DNA from: Escherichia phage EC100
Sequence record: NC_105587.1
DNA length: 64,000 nt
Direction: 5' to 3' (one strand)
The notes below the pieces were generated by a model. That model made no database searches. It was not told the DNA's origin and worked only from the letters and a program-made list of their open reading frames with translations. Positions 1,592-46,338 of this stretch are shown here, piece by piece. The position numbers and the translations under genes are program-made. How positions within the stretch are numbered: the stretch's first letter is position 1; every line of letters starts with the position of its first letter.

Positions 1592-3256
1592 TTACGCAAA
1601 GAATTTACCGTTCTTAAAGTCAATCAAAGTGCGTTGACCGTTTGCATAGGTAATTAAATGCGTTTGCGTCCAGCTTGACGCGCCAACGTTGTAACCCATA
1701 TCCAGACTACCCGCTACGCCAGCGGTATATACACCGCCGTAAATGCTGGCGGTGTGAGTGTGCCCCGTGTTTAACTTGCCCAATTTCTTAAACTGTTTAG
1801 GATTGCCACGGCTGCCGTTAATGCCATTGTGACCGTGTACGCCACATTCAATGCCTGCAATCTTGAAAGATTGATCAGTGGTCAGGAAAATGGCGTTAAA
1901 TTCACAACCTGCAACCTTGCGCAACGCATAATCTAGCACGTTGAACGTTTCGTCGTGTTCACCGATTGCCGCATAGATTGCAGCATTCAGGCGGTGATAC
2001 AGTTCCGCGTTCGCGGGATCGTCTTTGATGTTAGCATTACGATCATCAAGCCAACGGGATAGCGCCAAATCGTGATTAGATTCAACAATGATTGTTTGAG
2101 AAAAATCACGTTCCATTGATTCCAGCACGCGCCCAGTATCGATTAGATCATCCAAAACTTTATCACGTCCGGCGGCGTATTGTTTCGCTAGGAATACACC
2201 CGATGCGCGATTGTGATGGTTGCGCGATGTAAAATCATGCACGTCATGGATAAACTGATATTTTGGTTTAAGAATATCAAGCAAACTATTATCGCCAGCC
2301 CATGACGCAACGGCACAATCATCATCTAATTTTTCCGCATGAATATCGCCATACTGCAAGCCTAAAACATGCCCCGATGTCTCATAACATCCGGCGGGAG
2401 TAGCGCACACATTCAGATCATAAAACACCCCGCTTTCGTCCATTGTTTCAAGCTGGCGAACAAAAAATTCCCCATCCTCGTCGAACTCAACAATCAGCGC
2501 ACCGAAGTTATGCAGCGCCTCGGCCTTTTGTCCGGCTTTCTGCTGAATGTAGTTTTTGAGCGTTGCCGTTCCGGTTGAATACATACGGCGCACTACTTCA
2601 CCTTTTAAAGCTGGCACGCTTTCGGCGGTAATTTTAGCGTGACCAATCGCAAGCCCCTCAATATTGAGCGCGGTTGCAGTTTCTGCGAATCCTGAAAGCG
2701 GATAATCTGCGGTGGGCAAAACATTAATTTCAGCCATGAAAGCAAAACGGCGGTTATTTAAAAACACGTTTTTGCTGCAAATATATTTATCAAAAGCGGA
2801 ATCGTATTTAATACCGTCCGCACCTTCTCCATTCTGGAAGCCGTTTTTATTATAAATATACTTAGAAACAAGCAAATCAGCACCGATATATTCAGCGAAT
2901 TTTTCCAGACTTGCTAAAAAGTTTTTATGCGGGAAAGTATTATTCTGAATCGACGTAATAATAAAGCGTTTACCCTGTTTTACTTCCCATTGCTCAACCG
3001 TACTAGAAACAATTCCCGCCGCTTCTGGGCGCTCATCGTTTTTAATGGCTTTTGCTACTTTTGCCGCTTTCGGTTTAGCTGGTTTATTTGCTTCCAGCCA
3101 GTCGCAGATAGCGGTTGAATGCTTCGTTGTATCGTAGACCGCTTTTGATATATCGTCGCAGACTTCCAGTTTAGTAGCGCGCAGACGTTTACCATAGAAA
3201 TTAAAGTCAGCGGCCATTTTCAGGATAACAGTTTGCTTTTCTGCGGAAATAATCAT
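1592..3256 (-). CDS. A1: pre-early protein A1 (metallophosphatase-fold nuclease)
   Basis: 554 aa; calcineurin-like motifs 'GDIHAEKLD', 'GVHGHNG', 'GHTHTASIYGG'; size/position as T5 A1. Confidence 0.8.
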   Translation of the reverse strand: MIISAEKQTVILKMAADFNFYGKRLRATKLEVCDDISKAVYDTTKHSTAICDWLEANKPAKPKAAKVAKAIKNDERPEAAGIVSSTVEQWEVKQGKRFIITSIQNNTFPHKNFLASLEKFAEYIGADLLVSKYIYNKNGFQNGEGADGIKYDSAFDKYICSKNVFLNNRRFAFMAEINVLPTADYPLSGFAETATALNIEGLAIGHAKITAESVPALKGEVVRRMYSTGTATLKNYIQQKAGQKAEALHNFGALIVEFDEDGEFFVRQLETMDESGVFYDLNVCATPAGCYETSGHVLGLQYGDIHAEKLDDDCAVASWAGDNSLLDILKPKYQFIHDVHDFTSRNHHNRASGVFLAKQYAAGRDKVLDDLIDTGRVLESMERDFSQTIIVESNHDLALSRWLDDRNANIKDDPANAELYHRLNAAIYAAIGEHDETFNVLDYALRKVAGCEFNAIFLTTDQSFKIAGIECGVHGHNGINGSRGNPKQFKKLGKLNTGHTHTASIYGGVYTAGVAGSLDMGYNVGASSWTQTHLITYANGQRTLIDFKNGKFFA

Positions 3257-3634: not shown

Positions 3635-4042
3635 TTATTCACCTGCGGCTTGTTTTACTTCATCTGCAACGCCTAACAGTTGCGCCACCGCGTCCAGCGT
3701 TTCCAGTTTAGCACTTTCAAGGCTTGCCAGATCATCGGCGTCTTTGATAATGCCGGAATCAATAGCATGTTTAGCGATAACGCGTACATAATGCGCTTTA
3801 CGGATTGAACTACCGCCGCCAACTTTGCGCGGCTTATCGCTTTTTTGATATGCTTTCGCGCTGGTCAATTTTGACCGAACGGATACAGGAGAAGCCGCGC
3901 CTACTGCTTTTGCAATCTCTTTCAGGCCGTCGCTATTTGCAAAATCTAAACCGTTTTCATTAATTAACTGCTGATACATGGAAACAGCTTTCTGAGTGTT
4001 TTCTTCATTCCATGCGAATTTTGCGGTTTTAGCGTTAGTCAT
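3635..4042 (-). CDS. A2: pre-early protein A2 (putative DNA-binding)
   Basis: 135 aa, immediately upstream of A1 in same orientation; shares leader motif with dmp and A1. Confidence 0.6.
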   Translation of the reverse strand: MTNAKTAKFAWNEENTQKAVSMYQQLINENGLDFANSDGLKEIAKAVGAASPVSVRSKLTSAKAYQKSDKPRKVGGGSSIRKAHYVRVIAKHAIDSGIIKDADDLASLESAKLETLDAVAQLLGVADEVKQAAGE

Positions 4043-8856: not shown

Positions 8857-9201
8857 ATGGTAATTTATGAGGGCAATCGCTTTGTTGCTAATTGCCGCCC
8901 GGCATTATTAGCAAACTACTTAAATCAGCTTTCACCTGAATATAAAGGCGTCATAAATATTTACGAGGGAAAGGCGCATTATAAGATCAACGCGGTCGTT
9001 GCCCGTGAACTAGCATTTCAATTTTTGACCTTCGCATCTTGTGATATTCAGGTCATGGGTGAGGCGTTAATTGCAGAAAATGAAGACGATTTTATTAATA
9101 TTTTTCGCAAGGTGTGCACCGAGCGCCTGATCATGAAAGGCGCGTATATTCAGTCAACTGCGGAAAGTATTGAAACAGCATTTAGGAAGGTGGCGCAATG
9201 A
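8857..9201 (+). CDS. hypothetical protein
   Basis: ORF trimmed to ATG 8857 (GGGAGG RBS). Confidence 0.5.
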   Translation: MVIYEGNRFVANCRPALLANYLNQLSPEYKGVINIYEGKAHYKINAVVARELAFQFLTFASCDIQVMGEALIAENEDDFINIFRKVCTERLIMKGAYIQSTAESIETAFRKVAQ

Positions 9202-9356
9202 AAAAAATTTTGATAGCTGGTATGTTTCCTTTGTTGCCTTATGTAATTTGCTGGGCTTTATATGCTCATGGTGCTAGTGTTCCCGGTGTGGCTTCATTTG
9301 GTGTATCGGCTGGTTTTCTAACCGGACTATTGGCAAGCGTATATTTACGCAAATAA
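9198..9356 (+). CDS. tiny membrane protein
   Basis: 52-aa hydrophobic ORF, ATG overlaps upstream stop. Confidence 0.35.
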   Translation: MKKILIAGMFPLLPYVICWALYAHGASVPGVASFGVSAGFLTGLLASVYLRK

Positions 9357-9374
9357 TTAATAACGGGAGTTATT

Positions 9375-9569
9375 ATGAGCAATAAAATTATTGTGACCAA
9401 AACTAGTACAATGGTTGATGTTTTTTACGTGCCCGATACGCCGGAAAACCGACAAGCGGTCGAGCGTGGCGAGTATGATAAAGTGATTTATGATCACGAT
9501 GGTTATTACCAGTATTTGGTCGATTCCTACGGGGAGGAGGAGAAGATCACGCATCAATTACCGGACTGA
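9375..9569 (+). CDS. hypothetical protein
   Basis: 64 aa, GGGAG RBS, followed by terminator. Confidence 0.5.
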   Translation: MSNKIIVTKTSTMVDVFYVPDTPENRQAVERGEYDKVIYDHDGYYQYLVDSYGEEEKITHQLPD

Positions 9570-9575
9570 CAACAA

Positions 9576-9598
9576 GCGGGGAGCAGATCCCCGTTTTT
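9576..9598 (+). terminator. rho-independent terminator ending + strand operon
   Basis: CGGGGA-GCAGA-TCCCCG then TTTTTC. Confidence 0.6.
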
Positions 9599-9750
9599 CA
9601 GGCCTGCAATCAGATACCCCTTTGTTTTAGTATCCCCGCCAAAATTAAACGCGTTAGAATGCGATTCAGGACGTTTTAAGCCTATATTAGAATTATTCAC
9701 TGCATAGGAATACTGTATATTTATACAGTAGAATAACCTGGGGATAAGTC

Positions 9751-9820
9751 TGTGGATAACGCTTCAAAATGGCTAGGATTCTGTCAAGTCAAATCGTGCT
9801 GTTGATAAGTCTGTGGATAA
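9751..9820 (-). promoter_or_regulatory. two DnaA-box-like sites (TTATCCACA on reverse strand)
   Basis: TGTGGATAA at 9751-9759 and 9812-9820, each within an 18-nt repeat GATAAGTCTGTGGATAAC. Confidence 0.5.
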
Positions 9821-9840
9821 CTTAAATAGCAGTGTTTCTC

Positions 9841-10020
9841 ACTTCCATTTTTAAATGAGAATCATTATCATTTGCATTTCACTATCTAACCGATAATCAT
9901 TCCACTTTTTAAATGAGAATCATTTCACTTCTTGAATAATTCTCATCCCCTTTCTTAAATGCAAATCATTATCATTCGCATTTCACTTTTTAAATGAGAT
10001 TGATTCTCATTATCATTCGT
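9841..10020. repeat. degenerate tandem repeats
   Basis: three copies of TTTTTAAATGAGAATCATT and two of ATCATTATCATT(T/C)GCATTTCAC. Confidence 0.6.
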
Positions 10021-10030
10021 ATTTAGGCGA

Positions 10031-10048
10031 GCAGGGCAATTGCCCTGC
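10031..10048. repeat. perfect 18-bp palindrome
   Basis: GCAGGGCAATTGCCCTGC. Confidence 0.7.
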
Positions 10049-10053
10049 GCTTT

Positions 10054-10655
10054 TGTGCAAATCCGACAATTGCTCCAAGGGTTACGTGCTAGCGTGTATG
10101 TGCGAATCCGACAATTTTTGGTAGTGTGCAAATCCGACCCTAAAAACTTTTGTGATGTGCAAATCCGACAATGAATTTTCCTAAAAACTCCAGCAATCAC
10201 GAACTGCGTTCGAATCCTGTGGAATTAGCTAGAGTATGTGCAAATCCGACATGTGTTGAGATGTGCGAATCCGACAAGATTTTTGTGACTTCGATTGGAG
10301 GGTGTGTGATTGTATAGGTTTGAGGAGAAGATGAGAGAGCGAGAAAAATTTGAGGGGCTAGAAGGATGTGGGCGCAGGATTGGTGCGGAGCACCTGATTT
10401 GCGGGGATTTTGGGGAAGATGTAAGATAATTTGGGAAGATTTGAGATAGGTGCAGAAAAAGTGAAATTTTATTAGCAAAATGGAGCAAAATAGCTTGACA
10501 AGTGAAAATTCTTGTGGCTCTAAAAACTCAGGCAATCATGGGCCTTCGGCCCGAAATAATGCTGCCATTTTCAGAAGATTATGTGTCCATGAAAACTTAG
10601 GCGATTGTGCAAATCCGACCATAAATTTCTAGAAACACAATGTGCAAATCCGACA
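10054..10655 (+). repeat. array of eight direct 15-nt iterons (consensus ATGTGCAAATCCGACA)
   Basis: copies at ~10054, 10098, 10126, 10155, 10236, 10261, 10605, 10640, all same orientation. Confidence 0.75.
10300..10500 (+). repeat. purine-rich (GA) tract
   Basis: ~200 nt of almost exclusively G/A/T with GAGA/GGGG runs on + strand. Confidence 0.5.
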
Positions 10656-10679
10656 GTAATTTCTGGAAATGTGTTTTCA

Positions 10680-10830
10680 AAAAAATGTCTCCTAGAAATA
10701 ACCGCCCTCCCAATAACCGCCCTGTATTAAACCGCCTAGTATATGTTCCTAGAAACTTAGGAGAACCGCCCACTAGGAGTGTGGTATCTCGTGAGAACTC
10801 TGGAGTTTCTAGGAAAGTGTTGTGCCATCC
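10680..10830. repeat. short repeats (AACCGCCC x4, (T)CTAGAAA x5)
   Basis: clustered short direct repeats adjacent to the iteron array. Confidence 0.45.
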
Positions 10831-11192
10831 TAGCAGAAGAGCGGCAATAGGTGTATCATCTTGAATGTAAATTATGTGGTCAAAAGTTTTACTTTTATTT
10901 TAAATATAAGATCCCCCAGGGTTCTCATATAGAGCTTTGCCCCCGCCAGAAGGTCTCGTGATGTTTCTAGCAATTTATATTAAATTACTTATTAACTTGT
11001 CCTGTCGCTCCGTATCCTCCGCTACAAGTTAGTAATTTTAAATTACTGAACCACCACACCTTCTGTGTGGCAACTCTAAATGGTTAATTCTATTAACTCA
11101 TAGAGTTATGATAACATACATTTAGCTATCTGTCAACGAGAGTTTGTATTTGAGTCTCGGTACAGGTATTGTGCACCGAGACTTGCAGGATC

Positions 11193-12077
11193 TTACAGTA
11201 ACTCTTGGTATGCTTTTTGATACGCCTCAGTGTCAGTAGGTGTATCTTTTGCTAGCGCAATTAGTTCATCTGTTATCTGAATATTCGTATTATAACGTGT
11301 GTGGAACTCGTTAGGAATTTCTAGGTATCTATTGATGAATGCTGCAGCAAGCGGTGTGACTAAACCAATCTCTAGAGATAGCTTAACTTGTTTTTCGTAG
11401 ATTAAATATTGAGAATCAGATGGGATTGGTGGGGTTACATCAATTTTCTCTGGTTCTTTTTCTGGAAGCAATGGATTATTATATAATGCTTCATCTGGAA
11501 GCACAGATTTACGCTCTTTAAATATATAAGTTTCTAGATCCGATGCTTTAGATCCTGAGTATACAGCGAAGATGCTAGCTTTACCTTGTGATGCCCTAAC
11601 TGGTAGATAACTAGTAGGATAACTTCTTAATGCATCATGGAATGGACTTCCTGAGTACTTGTATGTATCTCCATAGAGATCATCAATATTCATTCGTTCA
11701 TTTTCAAAAATGTGAAATGACTTAAATGGTGGAATGGTGAAGTATTCCATCTGTAACCCATAAACTAAGAAACGATGTGCATATGCACTGATTTTTAAGA
11801 CTGTGAATGCTTTTTCACCTTCTTTATGGGCGTTGCCTTTTGAAGTAACTTGGTAACGTTTACAAAACATCTCTACTAGACGTTTCTCATTAATACTAAG
11901 GGTGGAGTACAGTCGTCCACTTAATCCTATAAGTGCATCGAACATAAATGCTAGTTTATCTTTTTCTTCCGGGGTTAGTTCAGGAAATGGAAGTACTTTA
12001 GCATTAGGAACACTATTATTCTCCTTAGGTTTTGTTTTACCAGCGTTTTGTCTTAGTTTATCTTTAAAGTTATACAT
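11193..12077 (-). CDS. hypothetical protein
   Basis: 294-aa ORF, first gene right of the repeat region. Confidence 0.55.
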   Translation of the reverse strand: MYNFKDKLRQNAGKTKPKENNSVPNAKVLPFPELTPEEKDKLAFMFDALIGLSGRLYSTLSINEKRLVEMFCKRYQVTSKGNAHKEGEKAFTVLKISAYAHRFLVYGLQMEYFTIPPFKSFHIFENERMNIDDLYGDTYKYSGSPFHDALRSYPTSYLPVRASQGKASIFAVYSGSKASDLETYIFKERKSVLPDEALYNNPLLPEKEPEKIDVTPPIPSDSQYLIYEKQVKLSLEIGLVTPLAAAFINRYLEIPNEFHTRYNTNIQITDELIALAKDTPTDTEAYQKAYQELL

Positions 12078-12154: not shown

Positions 12155-12763
12155 TTAGCTACCTCTCTTATCTTCATTAATAGCAGCTCCCAACGCCTCC
12201 ATAATAGCATCCTCTAAACTTCCATGTTTACCAGGATTATTAAAATGAATAGTACAAACAGAACTCCTAGAAACTCCAGCATCCGCAGGTGCTACGCTTC
12301 GCATATCAGATTCAAAAGCTTCTTGAGTATGTTTCAACTGCACAGAAGGGCCGTAATCTTCCCCAACTCGATAGGATTGGTTAGATGACAGCGTACCACC
12401 ACAGGGGACATTGTGCAGTTCCGACGTTATTTTAGGATTATTTAACAGTGCAATACCACCTTTTGACCACGGATCACTAACAGTGGTACTGGGACGATTC
12501 ACCTCAGTCTTCACAAGTTTGTACCCTGCATCGATTAATGAGTTAATAAGATTATCCGCTGGGATGCGAGCCTTACCAAAAATCTTACGAGCATCTTCAA
12601 GCTTACCTTCAAAATCTTTACACGCTCTAAGGTCGGTATGTGCAAATGTTAGTTTCATAGATTTGAATTGTACAGTAGCAGTTAAATCTTTAAAGCTATA
12701 ATCCCATGTATTCAATTCACGATCTGGTACTACTTGAATAGATTGTTGTGCATATAAAGTCAT
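12155..12763 (-). CDS. hypothetical protein
   Basis: 202-aa ORF. Confidence 0.55.
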   Translation of the reverse strand: MTLYAQQSIQVVPDRELNTWDYSFKDLTATVQFKSMKLTFAHTDLRACKDFEGKLEDARKIFGKARIPADNLINSLIDAGYKLVKTEVNRPSTTVSDPWSKGGIALLNNPKITSELHNVPCGGTLSSNQSYRVGEDYGPSVQLKHTQEAFESDMRSVAPADAGVSRSSVCTIHFNNPGKHGSLEDAIMEALGAAINEDKRGS

Positions 12764-32896: not shown

Positions 32897-32973
32897 TGGC
32901 GCGACCGATGGGATTTGAACCCACATTCCCTCCCGTGACAGGGGAGTACCATTACCAAGCCAGCCCCGGTCGC
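32897..32973 (-). tRNA. tRNA-Asp (GTC)
   Basis: acceptor GCGACCG/CGGTCGC, anticodon arm CTCCC-CTGTCAC-GGGAG. Confidence 0.65.
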
Positions 32974-45861: not shown

Positions 45862-46338
45862 TCACATCTCAGCCATTTCAGCTTCAGTAATAACTGTGTT
45901 ACACAAAGCATCTACAGCTTCATTACCACTAATACCAGAATGTCCTTTAACCTTAATAAAGGTAGGATTAGTATTATGAAAGTTGATATACTGCTGTGTT
46001 AATTTAAATGCTTCCTGCCAAAGTTCTAGATTAAGAGGAACTTCACCATCTGCTTTCTTCCAGCCTTTTCTTTGCCAAGAAAACATCCAACTTTCCATAC
46101 CATTTTTGCAATAAGCAGAGTCAGTATAGATAATAATTGGTCTATTATCTTTTTTAACGGACCAACGTAGAGCTTCTACAATAGCCGTGAGTTCCATCTC
46201 ATTATTTGTAGTTTTAGGACTATACCCAGATTTAGAACCTAAACGATCGTCGTTATCATCATAGACAATAAAACCCCAAGCACCTAAACCCGGATTGCCT
46301 TTACATGCACCATCTGTGTAAATGTGGAAAACCGACAT
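45862..46338 (-). CDS. rnh: ribonuclease H
   Basis: 158 aa; 'IYTDGAC', 'NEMEL', 'IYTDS', 'GH..N...D' RNase HI signature. Confidence 0.8.
   Translation of the reverse strand: MSVFHIYTDGACKGNPGLGAWGFIVYDDNDDRLGSKSGYSPKTTNNEMELTAIVEALRWSVKKDNRPIIIYTDSAYCKNGMESWMFSWQRKGWKKADGEVPLNLELWQEAFKLTQQYINFHNTNPTFIKVKGHSGISGNEAVDALCNTVITEAEMAEM

What the first reader, a model, noticed from the sequence alone, without database searches (positions are those of the whole stretch)
10054..10655. Eight same-orientation copies of a 15-nt iteron ATGTGCAAATCCGACA
The motif (variants GTGCGAATCCGACA and ...CCGACC) recurs at 10054, 10098, 10126, 10155, 10236, 10261, 10605 and 10640 with irregular spacing of 25-344 bp. 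This is the pattern of a protein-binding iteron array, not a CRISPR or coding repeat. The binding factor, whether A1/A2, a host protein or a replication/partition-like factor, is unknown.
Basis: seen in the sequence. Interest (0 to 1): 0.55.

Follow-up and report, generated by a model that had tools for sequence, protein, structure and literature searches.

The report
T5 "direct repeat D" iteron array
The eight repeats are real, but they are the already annotated "direct repeat D" copies of phage T5's injection-stop region, which straddle the end of the terminal repeat; no one knows what protein reads them, and the phage's own DNA-binding protein A2 is the best candidate.

Summary
Eight same-strand copies of TGTGC(A/G)AATCCGAC(A/C) lie at 10054-10655, against 0.3 expected by chance. 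The window is the left end of a T5-like phage (100% Escherichia phage EC105). In T5 record AY587007 the same sites are annotated "direct repeat D copy 1-9", and Davison's "Repeat Region 3" lists "nine DRD repeats" with no function assigned. So the feature is known and its reader is not.

New here:
- The array brackets the right end of the terminal repeat (window 10520|10521) at offsets identical in Tequintavirus and Epseptimavirus.
- Copy 1 follows a terminator-like hairpin and the GCGC nick consensus (T5 7.9% nick) by 3 bases.
- The 12-bp core is kept in Klebsiella, Erwinia and Pectobacterium T5-like phages whose flanks no longer align. It is altered in Vibrio phages and reduced to one degenerate copy in a Proteus phage.
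- That pattern, and the tolerated A/G position, argue against DnaA or another universal host protein.
- A2's predicted helix-turn-helix and basic linker are kept wherever the core is kept. The small terminase's recognition helix is not.

Best guess (0.35): A2 docking sites that restart second-step DNA transfer. Main rival: packaging or terminus recognition.

The parts
10054..10068 (+). DRD copy 1 (TGTGCAAATCCGACA), 3 bases after the GCGC nick consensus
   Evidence: homologous to T5 'direct repeat D copy 1'
10099..10113 (+). DRD copy 2 (TGTGCGAATCCGACA)
   Evidence: T5 DRD copy 2
10125..10139 (+). DRD copy 3 (TGTGCAAATCCGACC)
   Evidence: T5 DRD copy 3
10156..10170 (+). DRD copy 4 (TGTGCAAATCCGACA)
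   Evidence: T5 DRD copy 4
10237..10251 (+). DRD copy 5 (TGTGCAAATCCGACA)
   Evidence: T5 DRD copy 5
10262..10276 (+). DRD copy 6 (TGTGCGAATCCGACA); last copy of cluster A, 258 bp before the terminal-repeat end
10606..10620 (+). DRD copy 7 (TGTGCAAATCCGACC); first copy of cluster B, 86 bp past the terminal-repeat end, in unique DNA
10641..10655 (+). DRD copy 8 (TGTGCAAATCCGACA), 121 bp past the terminal-repeat end
10031..10050 (+). Terminator-like hairpin GCAGGGCAATTGCCCTGC (T5 'palindrome J') followed by GC, giving CCCTGCGC, the consensus of the T5 major nick at 7.9%; marks the first-step/second-step boundary
   Evidence: terminator scan; T5 annotation; nick 1 and nick 4 share TTG-CCC(T)GCGC
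10495..10552 (+). Right end of the direct terminal repeat, inferred at 10520|10521 (TTGACAAGTGAAAATTCTTGTGGCTC|TAAAAACTCAGGCAATCAT), followed by the hairpin GGGCCTTCGGCCC
   Evidence: the T5 LTR end (10139), the Sepoy PhageTerm end, the EscoHU1 LTR end and the end of the HASG4 record all map to this base; the context is conserved in Spivey and KEY
3635..4042 (-). Gene A2 (135 aa, pre-early DNA-binding protein essential for second-step transfer): proposed reader of the array (inference)
   Evidence: (phrog_1725); literature
9739..9820 (-). Context: two pairs of DnaA / DnaA-like boxes (TTATCCCCA+TTATCCACA, TTATCAACA+TTATCCACA), the element Davison proposes as the stop signal proper, about 235 bp left of the array

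Best explanation
The eight repeats are the "direct repeat D" (DRD) family of the T5 injection-stop region, Repeat Region 3. They are a conserved array of asymmetric 13-bp sites, (T)GTGC(A/G)AATCCGA(C/T). I propose they are read by a phage-encoded sequence-specific DNA-binding protein, most likely the pre-early protein A2, probably together with A1.

Proposed mechanism (inferred, not shown):
1. [quoted passage not shown]
2. A1 and A2 are made from this first-step DNA.
3. A2 then docks on the DRD copies, which begin 3 bases past the first-step boundary and continue for about 600 bp.
4. This capture, by ratchet or by recruiting A1, gets the next stretch of DNA moving, so second-step transfer resumes.

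Shown here: the sites exist, are non-random, are all on one strand, are conserved across the family, and the A2 DNA-binding segments are kept wherever the core is kept. Inferred: that a protein binds at all, that the protein is A2, and that binding restarts transfer.
For: (1) The sites are real and annotated in T5 as DRD copies 1-9.
(2) Copy 1 follows the terminator-like hairpin and the GCGC nick consensus by 3 bases in this phage and T5, 4 bases in Spivey, KEY and Proteus phage Stubb, and 8-14 bases in two Vibrio phages. This is at the 7.9% first-step boundary.
(3) The 12-bp core is invariant in Tequintavirus, Epseptimavirus, Sugarlandvirus, Erwinia phage KEY and Pectobacterium phage DU_PP_V, while the flanks no longer align. 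Vibrio phages carry altered versions (GTGCGGATTCTA, GTGCGAAACCTA). Proteus phage Stubb has a single degenerate copy. This follows phage lineage rather than a universal host factor.
(4) A2 is a DNA-binding protein essential for second-step transfer, and its mechanism is still unknown in 2026.
(5) In A2, the predicted recognition helix S-x-V-(S/K)-VRSKL and the basic linker (P/A)RKVGGG(S/T)SxRKxH(Y/F)VR are kept in all four lineages that keep the core, although overall identity falls to 50%. The linker is changed in the Vibrio lineages whose iteron right half is changed.
(6) The small terminase's N-terminal recognition helix differs among phages with the identical motif.
(7) No arrays of this word occur in Enterobacterales chromosomes.
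Against: No binding data exist. The A2/iteron co-variation rests on seven or eight lineages and is confounded by phylogeny. [quoted passage not shown] The array also brackets the terminal-repeat end in almost every lineage examined, which the A2 model does not explain. Relatives with an HNH gene inserted in cluster A, and lacking two copies, are presumably viable, so copy number and spacing are not critical. The A2 fold search gave no significant match. Other conserved phage DNA-binding proteins were not examined.
Confidence: 0.35

Rival explanations
1. Packaging or terminus recognition. The two DRD clusters are binding sites for the terminase (small subunit or another late protein). They position the cut that creates the right genome end at 10520|10521 in the concatemer, in the way lambda cosB R sites or the P1 pac hexamers flank their cut.
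For: The array brackets the terminal-repeat end: six copies at -467 to -258 and two (three in T5) at +86, +121 (+258). The offsets are identical in T5, Sepoy, EscoHU1 and HASG4. The same order (cluster A, G-rich tract, TTGACA...GTGGCTC|TAAAAA, hairpin, cluster B) is seen in Spivey and KEY, and partly in DU_PP_V and VspSw_1. One orientation would suit a directional motor. By the last-in-first-out rule (general knowledge), packaging should start at this right end.
Against: The nearest copies are 86 and 258 bp from the cut, and other conserved elements lie closer. The small terminase's predicted recognition helix varies among phages that share the identical 12-bp core. Vibrio phage D308 shows six copies on one side and none found on the other. 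No DRD lies near the left terminus, which must also be cut. An HNH insertion splits cluster A in some relatives.
Confidence: 0.2
2. Host-protein sites that are part of the stop signal itself. A pre-existing host DNA-binding protein (DnaA acting on weak boxes, or an unidentified factor) binds the DRD copies as they emerge and helps anchor and stall the DNA without phage protein synthesis.
For: The stop needs no phage protein synthesis (literature summarised). The reverse complement of the A-variant, ATTTGCACA, matches the DnaA consensus TTWTNCACA at 8 of 9 positions. The variant GTGCAAAACCGA, found in DU_PP_V and Sepoy, gives a 9 of 9 match. True DnaA-box pairs lie about 235 bp upstream.
Against: A third of the Tequintavirus/Epseptimavirus copies carry G at the variable position, which drops the match to 7 of 9 while selection tolerates it. 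The equally conserved ATCCGA half is not explained by a 9-bp DnaA box. The Vibrio VspSw_1 version (GAGTGCGGATTCTA) is not DnaA-like, and Proteus phage Stubb lacks the array, although DnaA, IHF, Fis and similar proteins have the same specificity in those hosts (host specificity is general knowledge). No paired cores occur in Enterobacterales chromosomes.
Confidence: 0.12
3. Replication-related iterons. The array is an origin-type or polar fork-barrier-type element read by a phage replication protein, for example the UL9-like D2 helicase. Its layout resembles plasmid oriV regions: iterons plus DnaA boxes plus AT-rich repeats.
For: The layout of same-orientation iterons, DnaA boxes and AT-rich repeats within 900 bp resembles theta-plasmid origins (the plasmid comparison is from general knowledge). 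D2 is proposed as an origin-binding initiator and T5 shows multiple origins.
Against: The published origins map near the genome centre (cited). There is no initiator gene next to the array. Spacings (25-344 bp) are not helically phased. The element lies in DNA that is duplicated at both genome ends.
Confidence: 0.08

Closest known systems
T5 'direct repeat D' copies 1-9 (annotation of AY587007.1; 'nine DRD repeats' of Repeat Region 3 in Davison, bioRxiv 10.1101/866236)
   Same: Same sequence, same order, same offsets, same strand. The window is 88% identical to T5 over this 1.2-kb region and every copy aligns with an annotated DRD copy.
   Different: This phage lacks T5's degenerate ninth copy (TGTGCAAATCCGATG), which lies in a 45-bp segment absent here. 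The literature read here assigns no function to DRD in T5.
Iterons of theta-replicating plasmids (e.g. RK2 oriV, pSC101, P1)
   Same: Several same-orientation copies of a 13-17-bp asymmetric word in non-coding DNA, near DnaA boxes and AT-rich repeats.
   Different: No adjacent initiator gene, irregular unphased spacing, a position at the end of a phage terminal repeat, and published T5 origins elsewhere.
Terminase recognition arrays: lambda cosB R sites, P1 pac hexamer repeats, SPP1 pacL/pacR (general knowledge)
   Same: Repeated short words on both sides of the site where the genome end is cut.
   Different: Distances to the cut are much larger (86-467 bp). The T5-type small terminase recognition helix is not conserved among phages sharing the word. 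Binding is untested.
DnaA boxes and low-affinity DnaA site arrays of oriC
   Same: TGTGCAAAT is the reverse complement of an 8/9 match to TTWTNCACA; the copies share one orientation; genuine DnaA-box pairs are nearby.
   Different: The G variant, the conserved ATCCGA extension and the Vibrio versions do not fit DnaA.

Membership tests
T5 direct repeat D (DRD) of Repeat Region 3 / injection-stop region | Sequence TGTGC(A/G)AATCCGAC(A/C) at positions homologous to the annotated T5 copies | tested here: met
   Alignment with T5 and the T5 feature table: copies 1-8 correspond one to one.
T5 direct repeat D (DRD) of Repeat Region 3 / injection-stop region | Location right of the 7.9% nick and palindrome J, running past the end of the left terminal repeat | tested here: met
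   Hairpin and CCCTGCGC at 10031-10050. The terminal-repeat end maps to 10520, between copies 6 and 7.
Replication-origin iterons (Rep-type) | Adjacent gene for the initiator that binds them | tested here: not met
   Only small unannotated ORFs and unrelated early genes flank the array.
Replication-origin iterons (Rep-type) | Origin activity at this locus | not testable with these tools
   The literature cited places T5 origins near the genome centre.
DnaA boxes | Match to TTWTNCACA in all functional copies | tested here: not met
   The A variant matches 8/9 and the G variant 7/9. 11 of 34 Tequintavirus/Epseptimavirus copies carry G. The Vibrio VspSw_1 version does not match.
Terminase recognition site (pac/cos-type repeats) | Repeats flank the terminus-generating cut | tested here: met
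   Copies at -467 to -258 and at +86, +121 relative to the terminal-repeat end, in four phages.
Terminase recognition site (pac/cos-type repeats) | Bound by the small terminase subunit | tested here: inconclusive
   Binding cannot be tested here. The predicted recognition helix of the small terminase varies among phages with the identical core, which speaks against it.
CRISPR array | Regularly spaced repeats of 23-50 bp with unique spacers and nearby cas genes | tested here: not met
   15-bp unit, spacings of 25-344 bp, no cas genes in the annotation.
Structured RNA family | Match to an Rfam covariance model | tested here: not met
   Only one chance-level hit (E 0.76, 12.7 bits against a gathering score of 627) in 9400-11300.

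The most novel reading that the evidence does not exclude
The DRD array is the missing cis element for restarting T5 DNA entry. [quoted passage not shown]
Probability: 0.3. Interest if true: 0.75.

Novelty: already known. Interest (0 to 1): 0.38.

Why it matters
How T5 stops after injecting 8% of its DNA, and how A1 and A2 restart transfer, has been open since the 1960s. A 2026 preprint still calls A2's mechanism unknown. The repeats themselves are not a discovery. What this analysis adds is a concrete, cheap experiment: a sharply defined 13-bp word, conserved across subfamilies, starting at the first-step boundary, paired with a candidate reader (A2) whose DNA-binding segments are kept wherever the word is kept. 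If A2 binds DRD specifically, the restart step gains a defined cis/trans pair. If the terminase binds instead, the array defines how T5 makes its terminal repeat.

Tried and rejected
- DnaA boxes: 8/9 at best. The G variant, the conserved ATCCGA half and the Vibrio versions do not fit.
- Universal host factor: the motif changes in Vibrio phages and is nearly absent in Proteus phage Stubb. A scan of 185,579 species genomes for paired cores returned 18 stretches. These are unrelated tandem or coding repeats, plus two T5-like fragments in metagenome bins. None is from an Enterobacterales chromosome.
- Nick-site determinant: T5 nick 4 has the same CCC(T)GCGC word but no DRD next to it.
- tRNA T-arm relation: the window hits at 32909 and 33281 (GTTCAAATCC, GTTCGAATCC) look like tRNA T-arms. 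The DRD has no matching stem (own reading).
- Functional second locus inside the SbcC-like D13 gene (T5 'DRD copies 11, 12'): absent at the homologous position in Klebsiella phage JIPh_Kp127, so it is lineage-specific.
- Sigma-70 promoter at the terminal-repeat end (conserved TTGACA): no acceptable -10 at 16-18 bp (and own reading).
- Structured RNA: no Rfam match.
- A2 fold assignment: Foldseek against the PDB gave nothing with E below 0.1. The weak top hits are transposase, Myb and homeodomain-type helix-turn-helix domains.
- Papers: Davison 2015 (PMC4743489) and Bourguignon 1976 (PMC515544) are not held.
- Shared words between the left-terminus and right-terminus neighbourhoods: only a lone CTAAAAACTC at genome 108,246, inside a coding region; judged chance.

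Full report
**What the window is.** Bases 9000-12000 are 100% identical, at the same coordinates, to Escherichia phage EC105 (ON185582.1, Tequintavirus, 108,732 bp). They are 85-94% identical to many T5-like phages. The window is therefore the left end of a T5-like genome. Genes dmp, A1 (1592-3256, minus strand) and A2 (3635-4042, minus strand) are present.

**Check of the observation.**
- GTGCAAATCCGACA with at most one mismatch occurs eight times, all on the + strand, at 10055, 10100, 10126, 10157, 10238, 10263, 10607 and 10642. Shuffles give 0.32 matches at the looser two-mismatch threshold.
- The preceding T is invariant, so the unit is TGTGC(A/G)AATCCGAC(A/C). Spacings are 45, 26, 31, 81, 25, 344 and 35 bp.
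- The stretch between 9570 and 11192 has no credible gene and no Rfam match.
- In the complete genome the only other perfect copy is at 76,954, with a degenerate tandem neighbour at 76,939, inside the SbcC-like D13 gene.

**It is already described.**
- T5 record AY587007.1 annotates exactly these sites as "direct repeat D copy 1" to "copy 9" (9672-10409). It also annotates palindrome J, the "major single-stranded nick 1, 7.9%" immediately to their left, and the end of the left terminal repeat at 10139, between copies 6 and 7. The D13 pair is annotated as copies 11 and 12.
- The window aligns with T5 copy for copy. Only T5's degenerate ninth copy is missing.
- He proposes the DnaA-box-bearing inverted repeats further left as the injection stop signal. 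He states that his model assigns no role to the many other repeats.

**Anatomy, and what is new here.** From left to right the locus contains:
- Two pairs of DnaA or DnaA-like boxes (9739-9820).
- AT-rich repeats (9848-10025).
- A terminator-like hairpin, GCAGGGCAATTGCCCTGC, followed by GCTTTT (10031-10053). Its CCCTGCGC is the nick consensus shared with T5 nick 4.
- DRD copies 1-6 (cluster A, 10054-10276).
- A purine- and G-tract-rich 200 bp.
- The sequence TTGACAAGTGAAAATTCTTGTGGCTC|TAAAAACTC, then the hairpin GGGCCTTCGGCCC.
- DRD copies 7-8 (cluster B, 10606-10655).

The bar marks the right end of the terminal repeat. The T5 annotation, the PhageTerm-based annotation of Sepoy, the EscoHU1 annotation and the physical end of the HASG4 record all map to this base, window 10520. 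The copies lie at -467, -421, -395, -364, -283, -258 | +86, +121 (and +258 in T5 and Sepoy) from that end. The offsets are identical in Tequintavirus and Epseptimavirus.

Within these two genera the DRD columns are somewhat more conserved than the rest of the non-coding region (0.97 against 0.88 mean column conservation). Two relatives carry an HNH endonuclease gene inserted in cluster A and lack two copies. Exact copy number and spacing are therefore not essential.

**Deep conservation.**
- BLAST aligns Klebsiella T5-like phages to the window only over the DnaA-box and AT-rich part.
- Even so, GTGC(A/G)AATCCGA is the most frequent 12-mer of the equivalent non-coding region in three phages: Klebsiella phage Spivey (Sugarlandvirus), Erwinia phage KEY and Pectobacterium phage DU_PP_V (Mccorquodalevirinae).
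- In these three it is always on the same strand and has the same layout: a cluster of 5-9 copies, a gap of 266-355 bp, then 1-4 copies. In Spivey and KEY the first copy again follows GCGC by 4 bases.
- The terminal-repeat end context (GTGGCTC|TAAAAA) is also present in the gap in Spivey and KEY.
- Pooling 61 copies gives the word a-T-GTGC-R-A-A-T-C-C-G-A-Y. Thirteen positions are informative, and the flanks carry no information. The set was selected at two or fewer mismatches, which inflates the figure somewhat.
- The word is asymmetric. The TGT...ACA dyad seen in this phage is not kept in KEY or DU_PP_V.
- Vibrio phages have related but different words at the same place. VspSw_1 has GTGCGAAATCTA after GCGC, and GTGCGGATTCTA twice, 338 bp further on. 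D308 has GTGCGAAACCTA and GTGCGAATTCAA, six copies, partly as 13-bp tandems.
- Proteus phage Stubb has no array, only CCCTGCGC-CTAT-GTGCGTAATCGAC.
- Arrays of the T5-type word occur in 48 stretches of IMG/VR, mostly on contigs of T5 size.
- In 185,579 bacterial species genomes, paired cores occur only in unrelated tandem repeats and in two T5-like fragments inside metagenome bins.

**Who reads it.**
- A word kept unchanged across subfamilies, while its surroundings diverge, implies a reader with an unchanged DNA-binding surface.
- Universal host proteins are unlikely. The word changes in Vibrio phages and nearly vanishes in a Proteus phage, although DnaA, IHF, Fis and similar proteins keep their specificity in those hosts (general knowledge).
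- The DnaA-box resemblance (ATTTGCACA, 8 of 9) fails for the G variant, which makes up about a third of copies. It also fails to explain the equally conserved ATCCGA half, and it fails for VspSw_1.
- Among phage proteins I compared two.
- The small terminase (phrog_3802) is 63% identical between this phage and Spivey or DU_PP_V. Its N-terminal helix-turn-helix recognition helix differs in all three (SEIAFRDIMNR, EEPKFREIMRK, TEVQCRMMLQK).
- A2 (phrog_1725, "DNA binding protein") falls to 50-66% identity in KEY, DU_PP_V and Spivey. It keeps S-x-V-(S/K)-VRSKL, which the AlphaFold model (mean pLDDT 84.6) places in helix 52-61 after helix 38-47. It also keeps the basic linker (P/A)RKVGGG(S/T)SxRKxH(Y/F)VR.
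- In the Vibrio lineages, where the right half of the iteron differs, the helix is kept but the linker is changed.
- This is compatible with a bipartite reading, in which the helix reads the invariant TGTGCRAA half and the linker reads the variable half. It rests on few lineages and is confounded by phylogeny.
- The A2 model has no significant PDB neighbour. The weak top hits are transposase, Myb and homeodomain-type helix-turn-helix domains.

**Most likely mechanism.**
- A2 is essential for second-step transfer, binds DNA, associates with A1 and the membrane (literature), and has no known target.
- The DRD array starts 3 bases beyond the first-step boundary.
- I therefore propose that the copies are A2 docking sites that capture the DNA just distal to the stall and restart its entry, by ratcheting or by recruiting A1.
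- My confidence is 0.35. That the sites bind some phage-encoded sequence-specific protein I would put near 0.7.

**Rivals.**
- Packaging (0.2) is the only model that explains why the array brackets the terminal-repeat end in most lineages. It is weakened by the distances to the cut, by the variable terminase helix, by D308, where no copies were found on the far side, and by the absence of DRD at the left terminus.
- A host factor (0.12) and a replication role (0.08) are discussed above and in the rival entries.

**Novelty and score.**
- The feature is already known and annotated.
- My additions are the family-wide conservation of the core, the fixed offsets to the terminal-repeat end, the arguments against DnaA and the small terminase, and the A2 correlation. 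These sharpen a testable hypothesis on an old open problem but are not a discovery in themselves.
- Interest: 0.38.

Noticed in passing
window 10495-10552: The right end of the direct terminal repeat maps by homology to 10520|10521 (GTGGCTC|TAAAAACTC), preceded by a conserved TTGACA and followed by the hairpin GGGCCTTCGGCCC. The cut context is also conserved in Klebsiella phage Spivey and Erwinia phage KEY. The EC105 record carries only one repeat copy and does not annotate it.
   Followed up: yes
window 9851-9875, 9955-9979, 9996-10014 and 124-148: The AT-rich repeats left of the array (T5 'direct repeat C' region) contain Fur-box-like 19-mers matching GATAATGATAATCATTATC at 14-16 of 19 positions. 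Another 16/19 match lies near the left terminus. The window has 19 such matches against a mean of 6.7 (maximum 17) in shuffles. The one paper returned by a search for 'Fur box' with 'phage T5' has an unrelated title and was not opened.
   Followed up: partly
window 10290-10460: A purine- and G-tract-rich stretch on the + strand between the two DRD clusters, including TTTGGGGAAGAT and TTTGGGAAGAT (T5 'direct repeat A' copies 2 and 3). A comparable G-tract stretch is present in Spivey, KEY and DU_PP_V. Function unknown.
   Followed up: partly
window 10692-10770: Four copies of AACCGCC (10700, 10715, 10730, 10764), interleaved with CTAGAAA words, just right of DRD copy 8. The first three are conserved among Tequintavirus and Epseptimavirus relatives.
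   Followed up: no
window 11136-11108 (minus strand): A near-consensus sigma-70-type promoter (TTGACA, 17 bp, TATCAT, with TG) lies downstream of the last early gene and points leftward into the non-coding region towards the DRD array. No gene or Rfam RNA was found for it.
   Followed up: no
genome 76,939-76,967 (L003 16939-16967; outside the window): A tandem pair of DRD words (one perfect, one with 2 mismatches) lies in frame inside the SbcC-like D13 gene. T5 annotates it as DRD copies 11 and 12, 370 bp right of the 64.7% nick. It is absent at the homologous position in Klebsiella phage JIPh_Kp127, so it is probably lineage-specific.
   Followed up: yes
L007 5960-6553 (relative; also L009): Some Tequintavirus relatives carry a 197-aa HNH endonuclease ORF inserted inside DRD cluster A, on the opposite strand, and lack copy 4 and one of copies 5/6.
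   Followed up: partly
L022 11401-11430 (Proteus phage Stubb): The PhageTerm-predicted terminal-repeat end (11415) falls exactly after CCCTGCGC, the T5 nick consensus, followed by a single DRD-like word. The software may have taken the conserved nick for a terminus.
   Followed up: no
L032 4034-4063 and L033 4271-4300 (Bacteroidales genome bins): Two different Bacteroidales assemblies share a conserved pair of GTGC(A/G)AATCCGA words 18 bp apart in similar flanking sequence. They are unrelated to T5-like phages as far as seen.
   Followed up: no
window 12413-12426 and 46324-46337: Degenerate DRD-like words: GTGCAGTTCCGACG inside the ORF at 12155-12763, and GTGGAAAACCGACA. The first has two or fewer mismatches in relatives, including T5 (L008), and may be T5's 'copy 10'.
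   Followed up: no
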